Assembly: GCA_048881705.1 (NCBI GenBank)
Contig: JBHLSH010000072.1
Coordinates: 1-20,622, forward strand
Direction of reading: 5' to 3'
Length of the DNA stretch: 20,622 nt
DNA from: Candidatus Heimdallarchaeota archaeon
GTDB taxonomy: Archaea; Asgardarchaeota; Heimdallarchaeia; Hodarchaeales; Hodarchaeaceae
Each line of letters starts with the position of its first letter. Positions within the stretch are counted from its first letter, which is position 1. The position numbers and the translations under genes were made by a program. A model generated the notes under the pieces. That model made no database searches and was not told the origin of the DNA. It was given only the letters and a program-made list of their open reading frames with translations. Shown here in pieces: positions 11,785-20,622 of the stretch.

Positions 11785-12675
11785 ATGGCAGAAGTCGAGA
11801 AATTCGGAGGATTGTTCCGTAGGATTGGTGACGCAGTACATATTGGTTCTAAGAGATTTCGTGGAAAAACCATCTTAAGCTCTGATTTTAGCGAAGAAAA
11901 TGGAGGTTCGCTAGTCTCACGGGTTCGTTCTGACGATCGCGATGGTTTCCGTAAAGACGATGGCTTTATAGTCAAAGATCCTGAAAATGCTGTCCTTTTA
12001 CAGTCAGGTACACTGGTAGGTGTTGCGGGAAGCGGAATATACGAACTGGATAAACTAGCAAAACGCCCAGGTAGTGAAATAATCTGGGTAAGCAAACGAG
12101 AATTTGTTATCAAATGGGGAACTCCTGGGATTTTATCCGCAGATAATATCATGATAGGTTGCTACGGAATTTCCCGTATGAGGATAGTTAATCCCCGGAA
12201 TTTCATTTCAAATGTAGTCTCTCATAGGCAGTATTATTCAAGCGAGGAACTAAAGAACTGGGTGAAACAAACCATAATTGGGGCCGTAAAGCATGTGATG
12301 TCCCGTTACTCAGTTCCGGAATTATTGAGAGAACGGCGAAGCCTTGAAATCCAGACTCGTGCAGAATTGGGGCCAGAAACTTCTCGCTGGGGCTTGGAGC
12401 TCGTGGGACTGGACATAGGTGGATTTAAGGTTCCCGATGAATATCAATCTCTATTGGCATATGAAGTAGAAAAACAGGTTCTAGAGCAACAGAGGTCTTT
12501 GGCTGAAGAGCGAGAACAGTTTGATGATATTGCAGAGAAAACCAAGAAATATGAACTTATGGTCGAACAAGCGGATGAAATGTTCCTTAGCGGGAGAATT
12601 TCGGAAGATAAATACAAGGAACTATCTGATAAGTACTCCAAGAAGCTAGCGGAATTAAAGAGCCAGCTCAGCTAA
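11785..12675 (+). CDS. SPFH/Band-7 domain protein with coiled coil and SHOCT-like C-terminus
   Basis: FIVKDPENAVLLQSGT..GSGIYEL, IKWGTPG, MRIVNPRNFISNVV, WGLELVGLDIGGFKVPDEYQ match the Band-7/SPFH pattern. C-terminal MFLSGRISEDKYKEL is SHOCT-like. No obvious TM segment. Starts 5 nt after the upstream stop (or overlaps it if TTG 11773 is used). Confidence 0.85.
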   Translation: MAEVEKFGGLFRRIGDAVHIGSKRFRGKTILSSDFSEENGGSLVSRVRSDDRDGFRKDDGFIVKDPENAVLLQSGTLVGVAGSGIYELDKLAKRPGSEIIWVSKREFVIKWGTPGILSADNIMIGCYGISRMRIVNPRNFISNVVSHRQYYSSEELKNWVKQTIIGAVKHVMSRYSVPELLRERRSLEIQTRAELGPETSRWGLELVGLDIGGFKVPDEYQSLLAYEVEKQVLEQQRSLAEEREQFDDIAEKTKKYELMVEQADEMFLSGRISEDKYKELSDKYSKKLAELKSQLS

Positions 12676-14438
12676 TCTTGACTCGAAGATAGTGGGCTGG
12701 AGTCTTCTGGTTTTAATTCCCCACTGCACTGGGGACAGATAACCATTCCTACTGTGTGCATATCACCATAGCATGTTCGGCAAACACTATTGCTACATGA
12801 TACACATTTATACCGGTTTTTATCCGTCTTAAATTTTTCACAAACCTCGCAACGAAACGAGGTGGGCGCTAGCTCAATGCGGAGACAAGTATTCCAAATG
12901 TCGATATTGCCATTGATTTGGTTAGAAATAATCATTTCTTCAAGATGGGCAACTACTTCCGCATCAGACCAGCCCAAGGTTGAAATGATCACTGGTAATG
13001 GGATTACTGAATCTGATTTAGCTAATAATTGCGAAAGATGAGGATCCAGGAGTTTTTCGGACGTGGGTTTTGGCCATAACCACCCGCTTCCCAAAGGGCC
13101 TCTCTTACAGAAATAACATTCTTCCGAACTTATTAGGTTATACGAATGCGTGTAAGTAATCTTGCAATCAGGGCAATGGCGTGGAAGATCAATAATGAAG
13201 GCCGCGATGTTCTCACAAAAAGGACAGCTATGTTTACTTCCCGCTGACCTGCAATTGCTACACAATATTCTTTTACAGTTTTGGCACTCAAAATATAGAT
13301 GTGGATCTCGATAAGAAGAAGTATCCACCTGACAGAAAATCTCGAAACTTAAGATGCCCTTGAGGAGAAAGGGATTTGTTGTATCGCCCGCAATGAATCT
13401 TAATCCATGTTTTTCTCCCAGTATCCTGACACGGGCGAGGAGTAGGAGAGGATCAAGATTTAGTTCTGCAGCCAATCCCTCGATATCAATGCCATTCTGA
13501 AACCATTCGCGTAGGGGAGGTCCCGAATAAGCTGTGGGAGAGATTTGACCATTTAAACTGCCATTCAAGATTCGTAACAGCCCCAAAAGCTCAATTTTTG
13601 CCACATCAAGCCGTTGTACCCAGAATGCAATCGGAACTTCTCGATAGACAATAAGATCTCTCAAAATATTGATTATGATCTCTAAAGTGGGGTATACATA
13701 ATTTCGGTCAGTTGAAATCACAAAACTAAGGGATCCACGATTCTTCTGCAAGAAACGAATACTATCTTCTTGGGAAAATCCCGTCAACCCACATATATCG
13801 CTGATAGCTACTTCCGCTCCCAGCTGAAAACTTCTCTTGATATAGCGAACTAGCTGCTTATTCCCCTTCTCCCGATCAACTTTTGAAGTGAAATTCAGGT
13901 TTGTAAAATTATATAACCGCTGTTTAATAGGATCAATGTACCCCCGGAAAAGATTTTTCTCAGATAGAATATCCAGGATGGCTTCTACGTAATCTTCTCC
14001 CCAATACAGGTCATTCAGAATGGTTCTCAAGGGAACTACGGTCTTATTCCCTAAATATTGTTTCAAGAAATTCTCTGCCCCTTGAGGCGTGAAAAAACGT
14101 CGAAAAATAATATCTAAAAACCCATCTATATCTTGGACATGCGCCAGAATTTTCAATTCCAAGATCCGCCCAGGTAGTTTGCCTTGGGTCAGGTCAATCA
14201 AAGTACAAATGTCAATGAAACCCTGTTCTTTGAGTTGGAGCCGCATGTTTTGTTCAATATACTTATCAGGAAAGAAAGTAGTATCGTCGGGAGTAACAAT
14301 ACCAAACGCCTCATTCGCTTCGATTTTTTCTCTCAGGAACTCAGCAATCACGGCACGGTCTTCTTGTGGCAATAAAAGAGGAATCTCAGTTTCCTGTGCC
14401 TGGAAAAGCCACCTTTTGGCTCTGTTTTTGAAAATCAT
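12672..14438 (-). CDS. Winged-helix (PCI/UFL1-like) repeat protein with two cross-brace Zn fingers and a Zn ribbon; candidate E3 ligase/scaffold
   Basis: Repeated WH-like units (e.g. EDYVEAILDILSEKNLFRGYIDP; DAEVVAHLEEMIISNQINGNID). Finger 1 is C369-x2-D-x12-C-x2-C-x4-C-x2-C-x8-C-x2-C408, ribbon is C422-C444, finger 2 is C530-x2-C-x11-C-x2-C-x4-C-x2-C-x11-C-x2-C571. Coding status is solid; the function is inferred. Confidence 0.65.
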   Translation of the reverse strand: MIFKNRAKRWLFQAQETEIPLLLPQEDRAVIAEFLREKIEANEAFGIVTPDDTTFFPDKYIEQNMRLQLKEQGFIDICTLIDLTQGKLPGRILELKILAHVQDIDGFLDIIFRRFFTPQGAENFLKQYLGNKTVVPLRTILNDLYWGEDYVEAILDILSEKNLFRGYIDPIKQRLYNFTNLNFTSKVDREKGNKQLVRYIKRSFQLGAEVAISDICGLTGFSQEDSIRFLQKNRGSLSFVISTDRNYVYPTLEIIINILRDLIVYREVPIAFWVQRLDVAKIELLGLLRILNGSLNGQISPTAYSGPPLREWFQNGIDIEGLAAELNLDPLLLLARVRILGEKHGLRFIAGDTTNPFLLKGILSFEIFCQVDTSSYRDPHLYFECQNCKRILCSNCRSAGSKHSCPFCENIAAFIIDLPRHCPDCKITYTHSYNLISSEECYFCKRGPLGSGWLWPKPTSEKLLDPHLSQLLAKSDSVIPLPVIISTLGWSDAEVVAHLEEMIISNQINGNIDIWNTCLRIELAPTSFRCEVCEKFKTDKNRYKCVSCSNSVCRTCYGDMHTVGMVICPQCSGELKPEDSSPLSSSQD

Positions 14439-14630
14439 ACCAATTCCTCTTTGAATAAAAAGAAATCAGATTGTCAAAAAGCCTTTCTCAAGGAATTTTA
14501 TCCCTGCCATCGAATCAGTTCCAATTCTGAAATCATATATAATAGCATGCTTCCCATAGCAATATTTTAAAGGCGTTGACGGTGTGTCTAGTAAAACATC
14601 GAACGAAATTTTGTTACGGATTGACTCCAA

Positions 14631-14981
14631 GTGAATCGAGAGAATGAAGAATCTGTACAATGTCGTCATTGCGGTCATGTTCCCAGAGACAAACCAGTTT
14701 CTGGTCGTTGGTTTTGCCCTCGCTGCGGAAAAGCCAATGTCGTTGCCCAAGCTAGGAGATATCAACGTCCCAACCTTGTTCAAAAATCCCAGCAACAGCA
14801 ACCCTCCAAGGATAAGATCTATACTCAGCTCTACGATAAGCTTGCGTCGCTCGGTAGGCAAGATACACCAGAACCCGAATTAGGATATAAAGAACCATAT
14901 ATTAACCCCCCTATACCCGTAATTCAACCTAAGGAACGAAAGAAGATTAAAGTTTTTATTCCCTTGAAAACAGACGATTAA
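14631..14981 (+). CDS. Small Zn-ribbon protein with low-complexity C-terminal tail
   Basis: CRHC-x14-CPRC pair followed by a Q/P-rich tail. It fills the gap between the E3 candidate and the E1 without overlapping either; GTG start. Confidence 0.65.
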   Translation: MNRENEESVQCRHCGHVPRDKPVSGRWFCPRCGKANVVAQARRYQRPNLVQKSQQQQPSKDKIYTQLYDKLASLGRQDTPEPELGYKEPYINPPIPVIQPKERKKIKVFIPLKTDD

Positions 14982-19754: not shown

Positions 19755-19846
19755 CCTCCTTTTTGTTATGTCCGTCAGGATAATATTCCCTCAAATTATT
19801 TATAATAGGCTCCATTACTGTTAGCAATTAATAAGGTGACATCGTA

Positions 19847-20392
19847 TTGCAGGATTTACACTCGAGACGCCTACGGGAAGAATTCAAGAGAATGCTCAAG
19901 GTATATCCTCCCAAGACAAGCCCAATACAGTGGAAAATTGTAAACAATGATCTCCATCATTATAGAGCCTGGATCAAGGGCCGAGAGGGAACTCCTTACG
20001 AAGGTGGAACCTGGGAAATCGCTGTAGAATTGCCTCCCAGCTATCCTTTTAAACCACCTGTCTGTAATTTCGTTACTCAGATCTATCATCCGAACATTGC
20101 GGTAGGGGAAACACGATGGAAATGGGGATCTAATGTCTGTTTAAGTTTAGTGAATTGGAATAATCTTGGTCAAACGGGGGGCTGGAAAGAAACCATTACC
20201 CTCCCGAGCGTGTTTGAACATCTAGAAATGATGCTAGAAGTCTACCAAACAACTGGAACGGATGATTTTCCGGAATATCTAGTCGACCCAAATGATCCCT
20301 TTAATCCTGATGCTGGTAAAGAAATGAGAGAGGAGTTTAGTACCTTTTGGAACAAGGCGGTCACGTGGACCAAAAAATTTGCTTCCTCCTAG
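19847..20392 (+). CDS. Ubiquitin-conjugating enzyme E2 (UBC fold)
   Basis: RRLREEF helix 1, IKGREGTPYEGG, LPPSYPFKPP, TQIYHPNI, catalytic Cys98 in SNVCLSL (20138-20140), DPNDPFNPDAG, AVTWTKKFA. TTG start with AAGGTGA upstream. Confidence 0.95.
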   Translation: MQDLHSRRLREEFKRMLKVYPPKTSPIQWKIVNNDLHHYRAWIKGREGTPYEGGTWEIAVELPPSYPFKPPVCNFVTQIYHPNIAVGETRWKWGSNVCLSLVNWNNLGQTGGWKETITLPSVFEHLEMMLEVYQTTGTDDFPEYLVDPNDPFNPDAGKEMREEFSTFWNKAVTWTKKFASS

Positions 20393-20419
20393 CTTTTACA
20401 TCGTAACGGGGGACATTTG

Positions 20420-20622
20420 ATGCCAAAAAAAACCTTTACGAACCGTTCAGATTCAGAGGATCCGAAAGAACTTCCCGTCGAATTGGAATCTAAAGTATCC
20501 TCAATTACTCTACTTGGTTCCCTTTTAGATGAAATGACTCAACACGCCCAGCAGGCAATCCCTCGTGAAGCCATTGGACTCCTTGGTGGTAAAGAGTTCC
20601 GTACCAACGAACTCCTCATCAC
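20420..20622 (+). CDS. JAB1/MPN (JAMM) metallo-isopeptidase, 5' part only (runs off the window)
   Basis: Manual translation: MPKKTFTNRSDSEDPKELPVELESKVSSITLLGSLLDEMTQHAQQAIPREAIGLLGGKEFRTNELLI. The H-A-x3-P-x-E-x2-G-L-L-x-G pattern is the MPN N-terminus with its catalytic Glu. The HxH...D motif lies beyond the window. Confidence 0.82.
   Translation, partial: MPKKTFTNRSDSEDPKELPVELESKVSSITLLGSLLDEMTQHAQQAIPREAIGLLGGKEFRTNELLI

What the first reader, a model, noticed from the sequence alone, without database searches (positions are those of the whole stretch)
12672..20622. Apparently complete, self-contained ubiquitin-like conjugation system (Ubl, E1, E2, UEV, E3 candidate, JAMM protease) next to ESCRT-II/SPFH genes
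Within about 8 kb lie UEV-like, Ubl and E1 (minus strand, co-oriented); TPR, E2 and JAMM (plus strand, divergent from them); an E3 candidate; and a small Zn-ribbon gene. Catalytic residues are present: E1 Cys185, E2 Cys98 with HPN, the JAMM Glu and a free GG terminus. Ub/E1/E2/RING/Rpn11 operons are known from Caldiarchaeum, and Ub-ESCRT clusters from Asgard archaea. This locus differs: the modifier is not ubiquitin, the E1 is UBA2/UBA3-like, the E2 has unusual loops, and the accessory proteins are atypical. It may be a separate Ubl pathway, a possible relative of the SUMO/NEDD8 precursors, tied to membrane-protein sorting. The functional linkage is inferred from proximity.
Basis: partly seen in the sequence, partly recalled or inferred. 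Interest (0 to 1): 0.9.

Follow-up and report, generated by a model that had tools for sequence, protein, structure and literature searches.

The report
Third ubiquitin-like system, UFL1-like RING ligase
This Asgard (Hodarchaeales) archaeon carries, besides its ordinary ubiquitin-ESCRT genes, an extra conserved ubiquitin-type tagging kit (tag, E1, E2, deconjugating protease) whose probable ligase joins the winged-helix scaffold of the eukaryotic UFM1 ligase UFL1 to a RING finger, hinting at what that scaffold did before UFM1 existed.

Summary
Real, conserved genes encode an 83-aa tag with a free GG end, an E1 (Cys185), an E2 (HPN81-83, Cys98), a JAMM protease, a Zn-ribbon plus tandem RWD/UEV protein, a small Zn-ribbon protein and a 588-aa E3 candidate. 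An EAP30/SPFH gene pair lies alongside. Order and orientation are kept in 17 of 17 readable congener loci, and core cassettes occur in a few other lineages.

Corrections:
- The JAMM is cut by the contig end. Only its Glu lies in the window; 15 congeners have it whole.
- The TPR gene is an insertion unique to this genome.
- The tag is a divergent member of the ubiquitin family (ubiquitin and NEDD8 tie), not UFM1.
- No specific SUMO or NEDD8 affinity was found.

The genome also holds a canonical ubiquitin-ESCRT cluster (contig C15) and a sister cascade (C57), so this is a third system. It is nearly confined to one genus.

The new point is the E3 candidate: a UFL1-like winged-helix array, zinc fingers and a C4C4 RING-like finger. 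It bridges the cascade and the EAP30-SPFH pair.

I rate it a new variant of the known archaeal Ub-E1-E2-RING-JAMM kind. No paper describing it was found. This scan has already noted the same system in at least 17 other genomes, with the same reading.

The parts
10754..11779 (+). EAP30-domain (Vps22/36-like) paralogue, 341 aa. It has a helical N-terminal half of about 180 aa and C-terminal winged helices. Its end overlaps the start of the SPFH gene.
   Evidence: Pfam EAP30 37.6 bits, cut-off 26.8, residues 186-316. Sequence. The pairing with SPFH is kept in congeners, in G078 and in the distant locus L070.
11773..12675 (+). SPFH/Band 7 protein, 300 aa, co-transcribed with the EAP30 gene. Its 3' end overlaps the 3' end of the 588-aa gene.
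   Evidence: Pfam Band_7 62.1 bits and Band_7_1 49.4 bits. 73-97% identical in congeners.
12672..14438 (-). E3 candidate, 588 aa. N-terminal array of winged-helix domains related to UFL1/DDRGK1 (about 1-350). Cys-rich zinc-finger block (385-444). PCI-like winged helix (about 460-522). C-terminal C4C4 RING-like finger (C530...C571).
   Evidence: Foldseek: UFL1 8ohd_A E 1.6e-9, 8qfc_B 3.9e-9. Profile A1 against PDB: UFL1 chains 9.6e-8 to 3.7e-6, MAT1 RING 0.005. VIA-align: UFL1 Z 9.5-9.9 over 221-276 residues, DDRGK1 Z 9.2-9.3. 9 of 15 orthologues hit Pfam E3_UFM1_ligase, best 3.7e-5. Seven RING-like Cys are invariant and C548 is nearly so. Model pLDDT 82.9.
14631..14981 (+). Small Zn-ribbon protein, 116 aa (C-x2-C-x15-C-x2-C, then a Gln/Pro/Lys-rich tail). 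Role unknown.
   Evidence: ORF. Weak Zn-ribbon Pfam hits. Conserved at this place in all 17 congener loci at 38-87% identity.
15021..16250 (-). E1 activating enzyme, 409 aa. ThiF adenylation domain with its own RYDRQ arginine finger, two CxxC pairs, catalytic Cys185 in a short UBA1/UBA3-like Cys segment, and a C-terminal region of about 70 aa (inferred E2-binding ubiquitin-fold domain).
   Evidence: ThiF 171.7 bits. PDB matches: UBA1 4e-32; UBA3 1.4e-29 over residues 21-274; UBA5 7e-19. Motifs invariant in 17 orthologues. Nearest named ESM Atlas clusters are UBA3 with E2_bind, scores 0.94-0.95. Tree.
16347..16598 (-). Ubiquitin-like modifier, 83 aa, MIKVRF...VPDQIKGG. The free di-glycine end needs no processing.
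   Evidence: Pfam Rad60-SLD 30.9 bits and ubiquitin 26.0 bits, both over cut-off. 80-99% identical, 83 aa and GG-ended in all 16 orthologues read. Distant relatives carry 1-5 residues after GG. The family profile hits ubiquitin and NEDD8 at about 1e-5.
16694..17485 (-). Accessory protein, 263 aa. N-terminal Zn ribbon plus two UBC/UEV/RWD-fold domains (about 51-163 and 179-263). No HPN and no conserved catalytic Cys.
   Evidence: Model pLDDT 74.3. Foldseek FANCL 7kzp_L 5.3e-4. VIA-align Z 9.0 to E2s, VPS37A and Tsg101 UEV, Z 8.9 to GCN2 RWD, and Z 6.9 to the Knl1 RWD for domain 2. Cys124 is absent from the G078 and L074 homologues.
17904..19754 (+). TPR protein, 616 aa. NOT part of the conserved system: an insertion between the two divergent operons, found only in this genome.
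   Evidence: No match at this place in any of the 17 congener loci. Alignment with the nearest relative breaks at about 17569 and 19825, and the genome holds at least 17 paralogues. A 3199-nt contig in runs X1 and X2 spans 16084-19282 and bridges the 263-aa gene and the TPR gene; the two runs may be one data set.
19847..20392 (+). E2 conjugating enzyme, 181 aa. H81-P82-N83 and catalytic Cys98, with three loop insertions relative to canonical E2s.
   Evidence: UQ_con 82.2 bits. PDB matches: Ubc1 3.8e-17, UBE2K, UBE2D. Invariant residues, insertions.
20417..20622 (+). N-terminal 68 residues of a JAMM/MPN+ metalloprotease, with catalytic Glu51. The rest is lost at the contig end.
   Evidence: Prok-JAB E 0.007. 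The full 180-aa orthologue in G070 scores Prok-JAB 49.3 and JAB 44.6 bits. The E...HSHP...S..D motif is invariant in 15 orthologues. Contig C9 starts inside the next gene. A raw contig runs 727 nt past the window end.

Best explanation
This is a third, lineage-restricted ubiquitin-type protein-conjugation system of a Hodarchaeales (Asgard) archaeon.

Proposed mechanism:
1. The 83-aa tag is made with a free GG end.
2. The single-chain E1 adenylates the tag and takes it as a thioester on Cys185.
3. The E1's C-terminal domain recruits the E2, which takes the tag on Cys98.
4. The 588-aa protein acts as ligase or scaffold. Its C4C4 RING-like finger engages E2~tag. Its UFL1/DDRGK1-like winged-helix array holds the target or places the ligase at a complex built by the neighbouring EAP30 (Vps22-like) and SPFH proteins.
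5. The Zn-ribbon/tandem-RWD protein is a non-catalytic E2-variant-type cofactor or adaptor.
6. The JAMM protease removes the tag. In lineages whose tag has a short tail after GG, it probably also matures the tag.

Shown here: the gene set, the catalytic motifs, the homologies, the conservation and the synteny.

Inferred: every biochemical step, the E3 role of the 588-aa protein, the targets, and the link to membrane or ESCRT-like sorting.
For: - Motifs and families of the tag, E1, E2 and JAMM.
- The E1's Cys185 aligns with the UBA1 active-site CTL motif.
- The tag is the best conserved gene of the locus: 80-99% identity, against 53-89% for the E1 and 41-90% for the 588-aa protein. It always ends in GG. 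Distant relatives have 1-5 residues after GG, the hallmark of processed, conjugated tags.
- The same gene order is kept in 17 of 17 congener loci.
- Compact tag-E1-E2-JAMM operons occur in other lineages: G119, L070-L072 and L074.
- Homologues of the 588-aa protein lie next to the cassette in L073 and L074. In G078 the homologue is co-directional with EAP30-SPFH, 21 bp after SPFH.
- UFL1 homology of the 588-aa protein. RING-like pattern and hits.
- Fold of the 263-aa protein.
- The E1 tree places this type as sister to the C57 type. Both together are sister to the Aigarchaeota/Thaumarchaeota E1s that carry fused ubiquitin domains, i.e. the Caldiarchaeum kind. That cascade has been reconstituted in vitro (PMC5654768, PMC6043591).
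- Complex prediction of the 588-aa protein with the E2 gave weak support only. Score 0.43, best of 3 controls 0.00. At 0.60 or under, only 7 of 80 solved complexes passed, as did both mismatched pairs that passed at all. The runs agree in at least 0% of contacts; partner pLDDT at least 75.
Against: - No biochemistry or expression data exist.
- The JAMM catalytic core is not in this assembly.
- The RING assignment rests on a Cys pattern and borderline profile hits (MAT1 E 0.005). UFL1 itself is not a RING ligase.
- Most of the synteny evidence comes from one genus, where gene order is inherited anyway: eIF2alpha and GNAT are just as syntenic.
- Outside the genus the accessory genes vary. L070 has a different 276-aa Zn-ribbon protein. 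G119 has a TRAP-beta/CARDB membrane protein instead.
- The complex prediction is only weak.
Confidence: 0.72

Rival explanations
1. Only tag-E1-E2-JAMM form a pathway. The 588-aa protein, the RWD protein, the Zn-ribbon protein and EAP30-SPFH are neighbours by descent with unrelated jobs. For example, the winged-helix/zinc-finger protein could bind nucleic acid or work solely with EAP30-SPFH.
For: - Within one genus, gene order is inherited, and the unrelated eIF2alpha and GNAT genes are equally syntenic.
- In G078 the 588-like gene sits with EAP30-SPFH on a different contig from the RWD-tag-E1 genes.
- G119 and L070 have the core cassette without a detectable 588 homologue nearby.
- The complex prediction gave only weak support.
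Against: - 588 homologues abut the cassette in two distant lineages, L073 and L074.
- The protein carries a RING-like finger and a scaffold homologous to a known Ubl ligase.
- The RWD protein has the E2/UEV fold and travels with the tag in G078 and L074.
Confidence: 0.15
2. An antiviral defence operon of the bacterial Bil/CBASS-associated kind (Ubl, E1, E2, JAB) that tags or is triggered by virus proteins.
For: - The four-gene core matches the make-up of bacterial Bil-type operons (bioRxiv 10.1101/2023.09.26.559546).
- The distribution outside one genus is patchy.
- A variable gene (TPR) is inserted in the locus.
- The E1 and JAMM give generic PADLOC hits: E1-E2 1.9e-16, JAB 5.8e-8.
Against: - The locus sits in a fixed chromosomal place among housekeeping genes in all congeners.
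- The tag is 80-99% conserved.
- The E2, tag, 588-aa and RWD proteins have no PADLOC hit.
- The E1 is far closer to eukaryotic UBA1/UBA3 (4e-32) than to Cap2-type E1-E2 fusions.
- No effector, nuclease or mobile-element genes were seen.
Confidence: 0.06
3. A sulfur-carrier or SAMP/Urm1-like dual-function system in which the E1 and tag mainly serve thiolation chemistry.
For: - The E1 belongs to the ThiF/MoeB superfamily. It hits NCBIfam ThiF, MoeB and the SAMP-activating UbaA far below their cut-offs.
- The JAMM weakly resembles the haloarchaeal desampylase, 27.5 bits against a cut-off of 130.
Against: - A dedicated E2 with HPN and Cys, a RING-like protein and a UEV/RWD protein have no role in sulfur transfer.
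- The E1 has no rhodanese domain.
- The genome has two much better ThiF/MoeB genes, on C8 (286 bits) and C22 (240 bits).
Confidence: 0.04

Closest known systems
Caldiarchaeum subterraneum Ub-E1-E2-small RING (srfp)-Rpn11 operon (reconstituted: PMC5654768; Rpn11: PMC6043591)
   Same: - Both have a ubiquitin-family tag with GG, a single-chain eukaryote-like E1, a UBC-fold E2, a RING-type zinc finger and a JAMM/Rpn11-type protease clustered together.
- In my E1 tree the Aigarchaeota/Thaumarchaeota E1s are the sister group of this type plus the C57 type.
- The compact tag-E1-E2-JAMM order is seen in G119 and L070.
   Different: - The E3 candidate here is a 588-aa UFL1-like winged-helix array with extra zinc fingers, not a small RING protein.
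- Here there is an added Zn-ribbon/tandem-RWD protein and a small Zn-ribbon protein.
- In this genus the tag needs no processing.
- The E2 has three loop insertions.
- The locus is tied to an EAP30-SPFH pair.
Canonical Asgard ubiquitin-ESCRT clusters (Zaremba-Niedzwiedzka 2017; Hatano et al. 2022, PMC9192718)
   Same: - Both are ubiquitin-type genes beside ESCRT-related winged-helix (EAP30) genes in an Asgard genome.
- The same genome holds such a canonical cluster on C15: Vps28, UEV, E1, an 80-aa ubiquitin, and an E2 further on.
   Different: - This is a separate paralogous set. The E1 is 409 aa with a Cys segment, against 343 aa for the canonical one. The tag scores 26 bits to Pfam ubiquitin, against 53.8.
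- The EAP30 protein is an extra paralogue with a long helical N-terminus, paired with SPFH and not with Vps25 or ESCRT-III.
- Hatano et al. report a single Vps22/36-like gene per Asgard genome.
Eukaryotic UFM1 ligase UFL1-DDRGK1 (PDB 8ohd, 8qfc, 8b9x, 8c0d). Picchianti et al. 2023 (PMC10183829) place the origin of UFL1 and DDRGK1 in Asgard archaea and suggest a UFM1-independent function.
   Same: The N-terminal winged-helix array of the 588-aa protein is homologous to UFL1 and DDRGK1 by sequence profile and by fold.
   Different: - The tag is not UFM1-like.
- The E1 is UBA1/UBA3-like, not UBA5-like.
- The E2 is a canonical HPN E2, not UFC1.
- The protease is a JAMM, not a UFSP.
- The protein carries zinc fingers and a RING-like finger that UFL1 lacks.
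- Another HEAT plus E3_UFM1_ligase protein, 798 aa on C29, is the Pfam-recognisable UFL1 relative of this genome.
FANCL (ELF plus double-RWD plus RING) and UEV/RWD cofactors such as Mms2, Tsg101 and VPS37A
   Same: The 263-aa protein has two consecutive UBC-like/RWD domains without an active site. Its best Foldseek match is FANCL, with Z 8-9 to UEV and RWD domains.
   Different: It has an N-terminal Zn ribbon and no RING in the same chain. The scores lie in the range where only the fold, not the function, is shown.

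Membership tests
Archaeal/eukaryote-type ubiquitin conjugation cascade (Ub-E1-E2-RING-JAMM) | Beta-grasp modifier of the ubiquitin family ending in Gly-Gly | tested here: met
   Pfam ubiquitin 26.0 bits (cut-off 25.4) and Rad60-SLD 30.9 bits (cut-off 23.8). The protein ends IKGG before the stop in all 16 orthologues read. 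The family profile hits ubiquitin at 6e-6. The fold itself was not modelled.
Archaeal/eukaryote-type ubiquitin conjugation cascade (Ub-E1-E2-RING-JAMM) | E1 with a ThiF adenylation domain and a catalytic Cys homologous to that of UBA1/UBA3 | tested here: met
   ThiF 171.7 bits. Cys185 aligns with the CTL motif of human UBA1. The GxGGxG, DRQ, NRQ, CxxC and PC..VG.PR...HC motifs are invariant in 17 orthologues.
Archaeal/eukaryote-type ubiquitin conjugation cascade (Ub-E1-E2-RING-JAMM) | UBC-fold E2 with an HPN motif and a catalytic Cys | tested here: met
   UQ_con 82.2 bits. H81, P82, N83 and C98 are invariant. The spacing is unusual: 14 residues between N83 and C98.
Archaeal/eukaryote-type ubiquitin conjugation cascade (Ub-E1-E2-RING-JAMM) | RING-type E3 that binds the E2 | tested here: inconclusive
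   The pattern C530-x2-C-x11-C-x2-C-x4-C-x2-C-x11-C-x2-C571 is conserved. Profile hits: MAT1 RING 0.005, then TRIM32, UHRF1, BRE1 and NOT4 at 0.05-0.5. Complex prediction with the E2 gave weak support: 0.43 against a control of 0.00.
Archaeal/eukaryote-type ubiquitin conjugation cascade (Ub-E1-E2-RING-JAMM) | JAMM motif E...HxH...S...D | tested here: inconclusive
   The window holds only Glu51; the rest is lost at the contig end. The motif is complete and invariant in 15 orthologues, and G070's protein scores Prok-JAB 49.3 bits.
Archaeal/eukaryote-type ubiquitin conjugation cascade (Ub-E1-E2-RING-JAMM) | ATP-dependent thioester relay and isopeptide formation | not testable with these tools
   Needs recombinant proteins.
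UFMylation system (UFM1, UBA5, UFC1, UFL1-DDRGK1, UFSP) | UFL1/DDRGK1-type winged-helix scaffold | tested here: met
   Foldseek UFL1 1.6e-9. Profile against PDB UFL1 9.6e-8. 9 of 15 orthologues hit PF09743, best 3.7e-5, and the window's own copy does not. The L074 homologue hits the DDRGK family at 2.5e-5, below cut-off.
UFMylation system (UFM1, UBA5, UFC1, UFL1-DDRGK1, UFSP) | UFM1-type modifier | tested here: not met
   Pfam Ufm1 finds nothing at this locus. UFM1 chains reach only E 0.3 with the single sequence and are not among the 60 best with the family profile, which ubiquitin, ubiquitin variants and other ubiquitin-like proteins such as NEDD8 fill.
UFMylation system (UFM1, UBA5, UFC1, UFL1-DDRGK1, UFSP) | UBA5-type E1 and UFC1-type E2 (no HPN) | tested here: not met
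   E1 matches: UBA1 4e-32 and UBA3 1.4e-29, against UBA5 7e-19. The E2 has HPN and hits UQ_con and Ubc1/UBE2D.
SUMO or NEDD8 pathway | Specific affinity of the modifier, E1 and E2 to the SUMO (UBA2/Ubc9) or NEDD8 (UBA3/Ubc12) branches | tested here: inconclusive
   The E1's nearest named clusters are UBA3, and UBA3 aligns over the longest stretch. However, the canonical C15 E1 also has UBA3 as its best match. The E2's best matches are ubiquitin E2s. Ubiquitin and NEDD8 tie for the tag. No tree with eukaryotic sequences could be built.
ESCRT-II (Vps22/Vps36/Vps25) | EAP30 tandem winged-helix domain | tested here: met
   EAP30 37.6 bits, cut-off 26.8.
ESCRT-II (Vps22/Vps36/Vps25) | Association with Vps25 and ESCRT-III/Vps4 | tested here: not met
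   The partner here is an SPFH gene in every locus read. No Vps25, Snf7 or Vps4 gene lies in the window.
Bacterial antiviral Ubl operons (Bil, CBASS Cap2/Cap3) | Match to defence-system protein models | tested here: not met
   PADLOC gives only generic E1 (1.9e-16) and JAB (5.8e-8) hits, and none for the E2, tag, 588-aa or RWD proteins. The library dates from 2023.

The most novel reading that the evidence does not exclude
The 588-aa protein would be a living example of the pre-UFM1 state of the UFL1/DDRGK1 scaffold. On this reading it is a RING-dependent ligase of a ubiquitin-type tag that works on a membrane-associated EAP30 (Vps22-like)/SPFH platform. The eukaryotic UFM1 ligase would then have arisen by losing the RING and switching tag, E1 and E2.
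Probability: 0.2. Interest if true: 0.8.

Novelty: new variant of a known kind. Interest (0 to 1): 0.58.

Why it matters
Asgard ubiquitin clusters are known, but they are usually treated as one system per genome. Here one Hodarchaeales genome has three orthogonal-looking tag/E1/E2 sets. That is the kind of paralogue expansion which produced ubiquitin, NEDD8, SUMO and others in eukaryotes.

Published work (PMC10183829) states that UFL1 and DDRGK1 arose in Asgard archaea before UFM1 and may have had another function. This locus gives that statement a concrete, testable candidate: a UFL1-like scaffold fused to a RING-like finger, genetically tied to a ubiquitin-type cascade and to a Vps22-like/SPFH pair. 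All parts are small soluble proteins suited to in vitro reconstitution.

The narrow distribution warns that this may be a derived, lineage-specific arrangement and not an ancestral one.

Tried and rejected
- UFM1 identity of the tag. The single sequence gave full-length but insignificant alignments to UFM1 (E 0.3). The Pfam Ufm1 model, a phmmer scan of 1.84 billion representatives, ESM features and the family profile all point to ubiquitin. Rejected.
- Catalytic role for Cys124 of the 263-aa protein. It sits near the E2 active-site position and is invariant in the genus, but is absent from the G078 and L074 homologues. Rejected.
- GLUE/PH domain in the EAP30 protein. The N-terminal half is helical with no family hit. 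Not supported.
- TPR protein as part of the system. Rejected.
- Rest of the JAMM gene in this assembly. Not found. Only paralogues on C67 and C57 turned up, and C9 starts in the next gene.
- Expression. No RNA holder was listed among public runs.
- NCBIfam. No family for the E2, tag, 588-aa, RWD, EAP30 or SPFH proteins.
- Pfam on the membrane protein that follows the JAMM in G070. No family.
- Direct BLASTP of the 588-aa protein against the genome's HEAT/E3_UFM1_ligase protein on C29. No significant similarity.
- Literature searches for a description of this cluster found none.
- A phylogeny with eukaryotic E1, E2 and Ubl sequences could not be built, because no named eukaryotic sequences were retrievable by reference.

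Full report
**What the window is.** The window is a whole 20,622-bp contig (C72) of a 3.96-Mb, 155-contig, 41% GC assembly. Its gene content is typical of Asgard archaea: Roadblock/LAMTOR-like, Arf-like GTPase, EAP30 and GINS genes. Database names of near-identical proteins point to Hodarchaeales/Heimdallarchaeia.

**Check of the observation.**
- E1: 15021-16250(-), 409 aa, ThiF 171.7 bits. Its Cys185 lies in PCTLVGIPRIREHC, which HMMER aligns with the active-site CTL segment of human UBA1.
- Tag: annotated from a GTG at 16652, but all 16 orthologues read start at the ATG corresponding to 16598. This gives 83 aa, MIKVRF...VPDQIKGG, followed directly by the stop.
- E2: 19847-20392(+), 181 aa, UQ_con 82.2 bits, with H81-P82-N83 and Cys98. 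There are 14 residues between Asn83 and Cys98, plus two further insertions. The first two insertions are shared with the paralogue on C57.
- JAMM: it begins at 20417 and is cut after 68 residues by the contig end. Only Glu51 (EAIGLLGG) lies in the window. In 15 congeners the protein is 166-192 aa with invariant E...GWWHSHPG.GLFLS.TD. G070's copy passes both Pfam JAB models. Contig C9 begins inside the gene that follows the JAMM in G070. A raw contig of the probable source run extends 727 nt past the window end. The truncation is therefore an assembly gap.
- Small Zn-ribbon gene: the 116-aa ORF at 14631-14981(+). It is conserved in every congener. The overlapping 131-aa minus-strand ORF and the 55-aa ORF at 17551 are probably spurious.

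**Conservation.** I searched 400 Asgard genomes with the 588-aa protein and with the tag, fetched 18 loci and mapped the window's proteins onto them.

All 17 congener loci show the same order and orientation: eIF2alpha, GNAT, EAP30, SPFH, 588, Zn-ribbon, E1, tag, RWD protein, E2, JAMM. One of these contigs ends within the tag gene.

Identities to the window are:

| Protein | Identity |
|---|---|
| Tag | 80-99% |
| E2 | 72-96% |
| RWD protein | 59-92% |
| E1 | 53-89% |
| 588-aa protein | 41-90% |

The TPR gene (17904-19754) has no counterpart in any of these loci. Alignment with the 90-99% identical relative breaks at about 17569 and 19825, and the genome has at least 17 TPR paralogues. The TPR gene is an insertion, not a component.

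**Distribution.** The tag was found in 20 of 21 other species of the genus; the genome without a match is about 80% complete. It was also found in one other genus of the order (G078) and in one genome of another family (G119). It was found in none of the other 377 genomes searched.

Metagenomic relatives of the tag (45-65% identity) sit in compact cassettes:
- L070-L072 and G119: tag-E1-E2-JAMM.
- L074: 579-aa WH/zinc-finger protein, E1, E2, JAMM, a 331-aa Zn-ribbon/RWD protein, then the tag.
- L073: E2-JAMM diverging from the tag, with a 588-like gene adjacent.

Several of these tags carry 1-5 residues after GG, so they need processing. That fits a conjugated modifier with a cognate protease.

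**The genome has three ubiquitin-type sets**.
- C15 carries the canonical Asgard cluster: Vps28, a UEV protein, a Ras-like GTPase, Yip1, a 343-aa E1 and an 80-aa ubiquitin (53.8 bits), with a compact E2 about 12 kb further on.
- C57 carries two tags ending AG, a 420-aa E1, a 184-aa E2, a JAB and membrane proteins.
- C72 is the third set.

In an E1 tree (44 sequences, LG+C20) the C72 type forms a clade (98/97) that is sister to the C57 type (97/97). Both together are sister to Aigarchaeota/Thaumarchaeota E1s. The canonical C15 E1 falls outside with MoeB/ThiF, but long branches make that placement unsure. No eukaryotic sequences could be included.

**What the tag, E1 and E2 resemble.**
- Tag: it passes Pfam ubiquitin and Rad60-SLD. 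In 1.84 billion representatives it finds only a handful of full-length relatives plus polyubiquitins. Its family profile hits ubiquitin at 6e-6 and NEDD8/Rub1 at 8e-6 to 2e-5. UFM1 is not supported.
- E1: it is closest to UBA1 (4e-32) and UBA3 (1.4e-29, aligned over residues 21-274). Next come UBA7 (3.9e-28) and UBA2 (4e-25). ThiF reaches 7e-23 and UBA5 7e-19. Its nearest named ESM clusters are UBA3 with the E2_bind domain. The canonical C15 E1 also has UBA3 as its best match, so 'UBA3-like' is a trait of archaeal E1-likes in general. What distinguishes the C72 and C57 types is the longer UBA1/UBA3-like Cys segment.
- E2: its best matches are ubiquitin E2s, namely Ubc1/E2-K and UBE2D.

There is thus no specific SUMO or NEDD8 signal.

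**The E3 candidate.** An AlphaFold2 model from 15 orthologues (pLDDT 82.9) shows five to six winged-helix domains, a Cys-rich block, a further winged helix and a terminal zinc finger.

Evidence for UFL1 homology:
- The best Foldseek matches are UFL1 chains of the UFM1 E3-ribosome complexes (1.6e-9, 3.9e-9) and UFL1-DDRGK1 chimeras. SelB, ESCRT-II and PCI proteins follow at 7e-4 or worse.
- A sequence profile of the family finds UFL1 chains as the top PDB hits (9.6e-8 to 3.7e-6). It also finds DDRGK1 weakly for the winged helix at 461-520, and RING fingers for 522-582: MAT1 at 0.005, then TRIM32, UHRF1, p44, BRE1 and NOT4.
- VIA-align gives UFL1 the longest coverage (221-276 residues, Z 9.5-9.9) and DDRGK1 Z 9.2-9.3.
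- Nine of 15 orthologues hit Pfam E3_UFM1_ligase (best 3.7e-5), though the window's own copy does not.

The terminal finger is C-x2-C-x11-C-x2-C-x4-C-x2-C-x11-C-x2-C. Seven of its eight Cys are invariant and C548 is nearly so. This is a C4C4 pattern like those of NOT4, MAT1 and p44.

A complex prediction of the whole protein with the E2 gave weak support only. The score was 0.43 and the best of 3 controls 0.00. In that score range only 7 of 80 solved complexes passed, as did both mismatched pairs that passed at all. The runs agree in at least 0% of contacts, and the partner's pLDDT is at least 75.

**The 'UEV-like' protein.** The model (pLDDT 74.3) has a Zn ribbon and two alpha/beta domains.
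- Foldseek ranks FANCL first (5.3e-4), then E2s.
- An exhaustive VIA-align search gives Z 9.0 to E2s, VPS37A and Tsg101 UEV, Z 8.9 to GCN2 RWD, and Z 8.7 to FANCL for domain 1. It gives Z 6.9 to the Knl1 RWD for domain 2.
- There is no HPN. Cys124 is invariant in the genus but missing in the G078 and L074 homologues.

It is therefore a non-catalytic E2-variant/RWD protein.

**The link to EAP30-SPFH.** The EAP30 protein (341 aa) has a helical N-terminal half and an EAP30 domain. Its gene overlaps the SPFH gene. Within the genus, synteny alone proves little. Three observations outside the genus carry more weight:
- In G078, EAP30, SPFH and the 588-like gene are co-directional with a 21-bp gap, while RWD-tag-E1 lie on another contig.
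- In L070 an EAP30-Band 7 pair lies 5.4 kb from the cassette.
- In L073 and L074 the 588-like gene abuts the cassette.

The 588-aa protein is thus the element shared by both modules. Large membrane-anchored surface proteins follow the cassette in L070/L072 and in G119 (the G119 protein has TRAP-beta, CARDB and a Zn ribbon). This is a hint, not more, that membrane proteins are targets.

**Rivals.**
- Defence operon: PADLOC gives only generic E1 and JAB hits, and the locus sits in a fixed housekeeping context.
- Sulfur carrier: it would not need the E2, RING or RWD proteins, and better ThiF/MoeB genes exist on C8 and C22.
- The main live rival is that the accessory genes are not part of the pathway.

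**Literature.**
- Picchianti et al. 2023 (PMC10183829) place the origin of UFL1 and DDRGK1 in Asgard archaea and suggest a UFM1-independent function.
- Köstlbacher et al. 2026 (PMC12962969) report Ufm1 homologues in nine Asgard clades.
- Hatano et al. 2022 (PMC9192718) describe the canonical Ub-ESCRT clusters, with a single Vps22/36-like gene per genome.
- Liu et al. (bioRxiv 10.1101/2020.10.19.343400) mention E3-UFM1-ligase domains in Asgard fusion proteins.

I found no paper that describes this cluster.

After finishing my own analysis I looked up this scan's notes. The same system has been reported in at least 17 other genomes with the same reading.

**Verdict.** The locus is a real, conserved third ubiquitin-type conjugation system. 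Its tag, E1, E2 and JAMM are of the known archaeal kind. Its candidate ligase has an unreported architecture, UFL1-like plus RING. It is restricted to a narrow lineage. I class it as a new variant of a known kind.

Noticed in passing
window 17904-19754 (+), flanks about 17569 and 19825: The 616-aa TPR gene is inserted between the two divergent operons in this genome only. It belongs to a family of at least 17 paralogues (24-33% identity) scattered over the assembly. How such genes move is not explained; no transposase or repeats were looked for.
   Followed up: partly
window 4591-6775 (-): Roadblock/LC7 (134 aa), Arf-like small GTPase (199 aa) and Roadblock/MAPKK1_Int (LAMTOR-like, 164 aa) genes lie in a row. 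This resembles the Roadblock-GTPase operon described for Asgard archaea (bioRxiv 10.1101/2020.10.19.343400).
   Followed up: no
G000:C57 (L014 5205-11757): A sister cascade: two tags that end in AG instead of GG (116 and 154 aa), a 420-aa E1, a 184-aa E2 whose frame has no ATG/GTG/TTG start in its first 109 codons, a 269-aa JAB, and a 369-aa membrane protein with a C-terminal Cys-rich finger.
   Followed up: partly
G000:C9:1-624 and L047 961-1752: The gene after the JAMM in congeners encodes a 263-aa protein with an N-terminal hydrophobic stretch and no Pfam family. In this genome it starts contig C9, so C72 and C9 are neighbours across a gap of about 0.5 kb. Earlier notes of this scan call it CCDC47-like. 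I did not test that.
   Followed up: partly
G000:C29 (L065 466-2862, -): A 798-aa protein combines HEAT repeats with a Pfam E3_UFM1_ligase segment (28.8 bits, cut-off 23.2). It is a second UFL1-related protein, Pfam-recognisable and unrelated in sequence to the 588-aa one.
   Followed up: partly
L100 3578-6418 (G119) and L070 14203-17382: In distant lineages the tag-E1-E2-JAMM cassette is followed by a 946-1059-aa protein. The G119 copy has TRAP-beta and CARDB domains and a C-terminal Zn ribbon. The L070 copy has hydrophobic stretches at both ends. These are possible targets of the system.
   Followed up: no
window 10754-11779: This is a second EAP30-family gene in a genome that also has the canonical ESCRT cluster, whereas Hatano et al. 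2022 report one Vps22/36-like gene per Asgard genome. Its N-terminal 180 residues are helical and match no family.
   Followed up: partly
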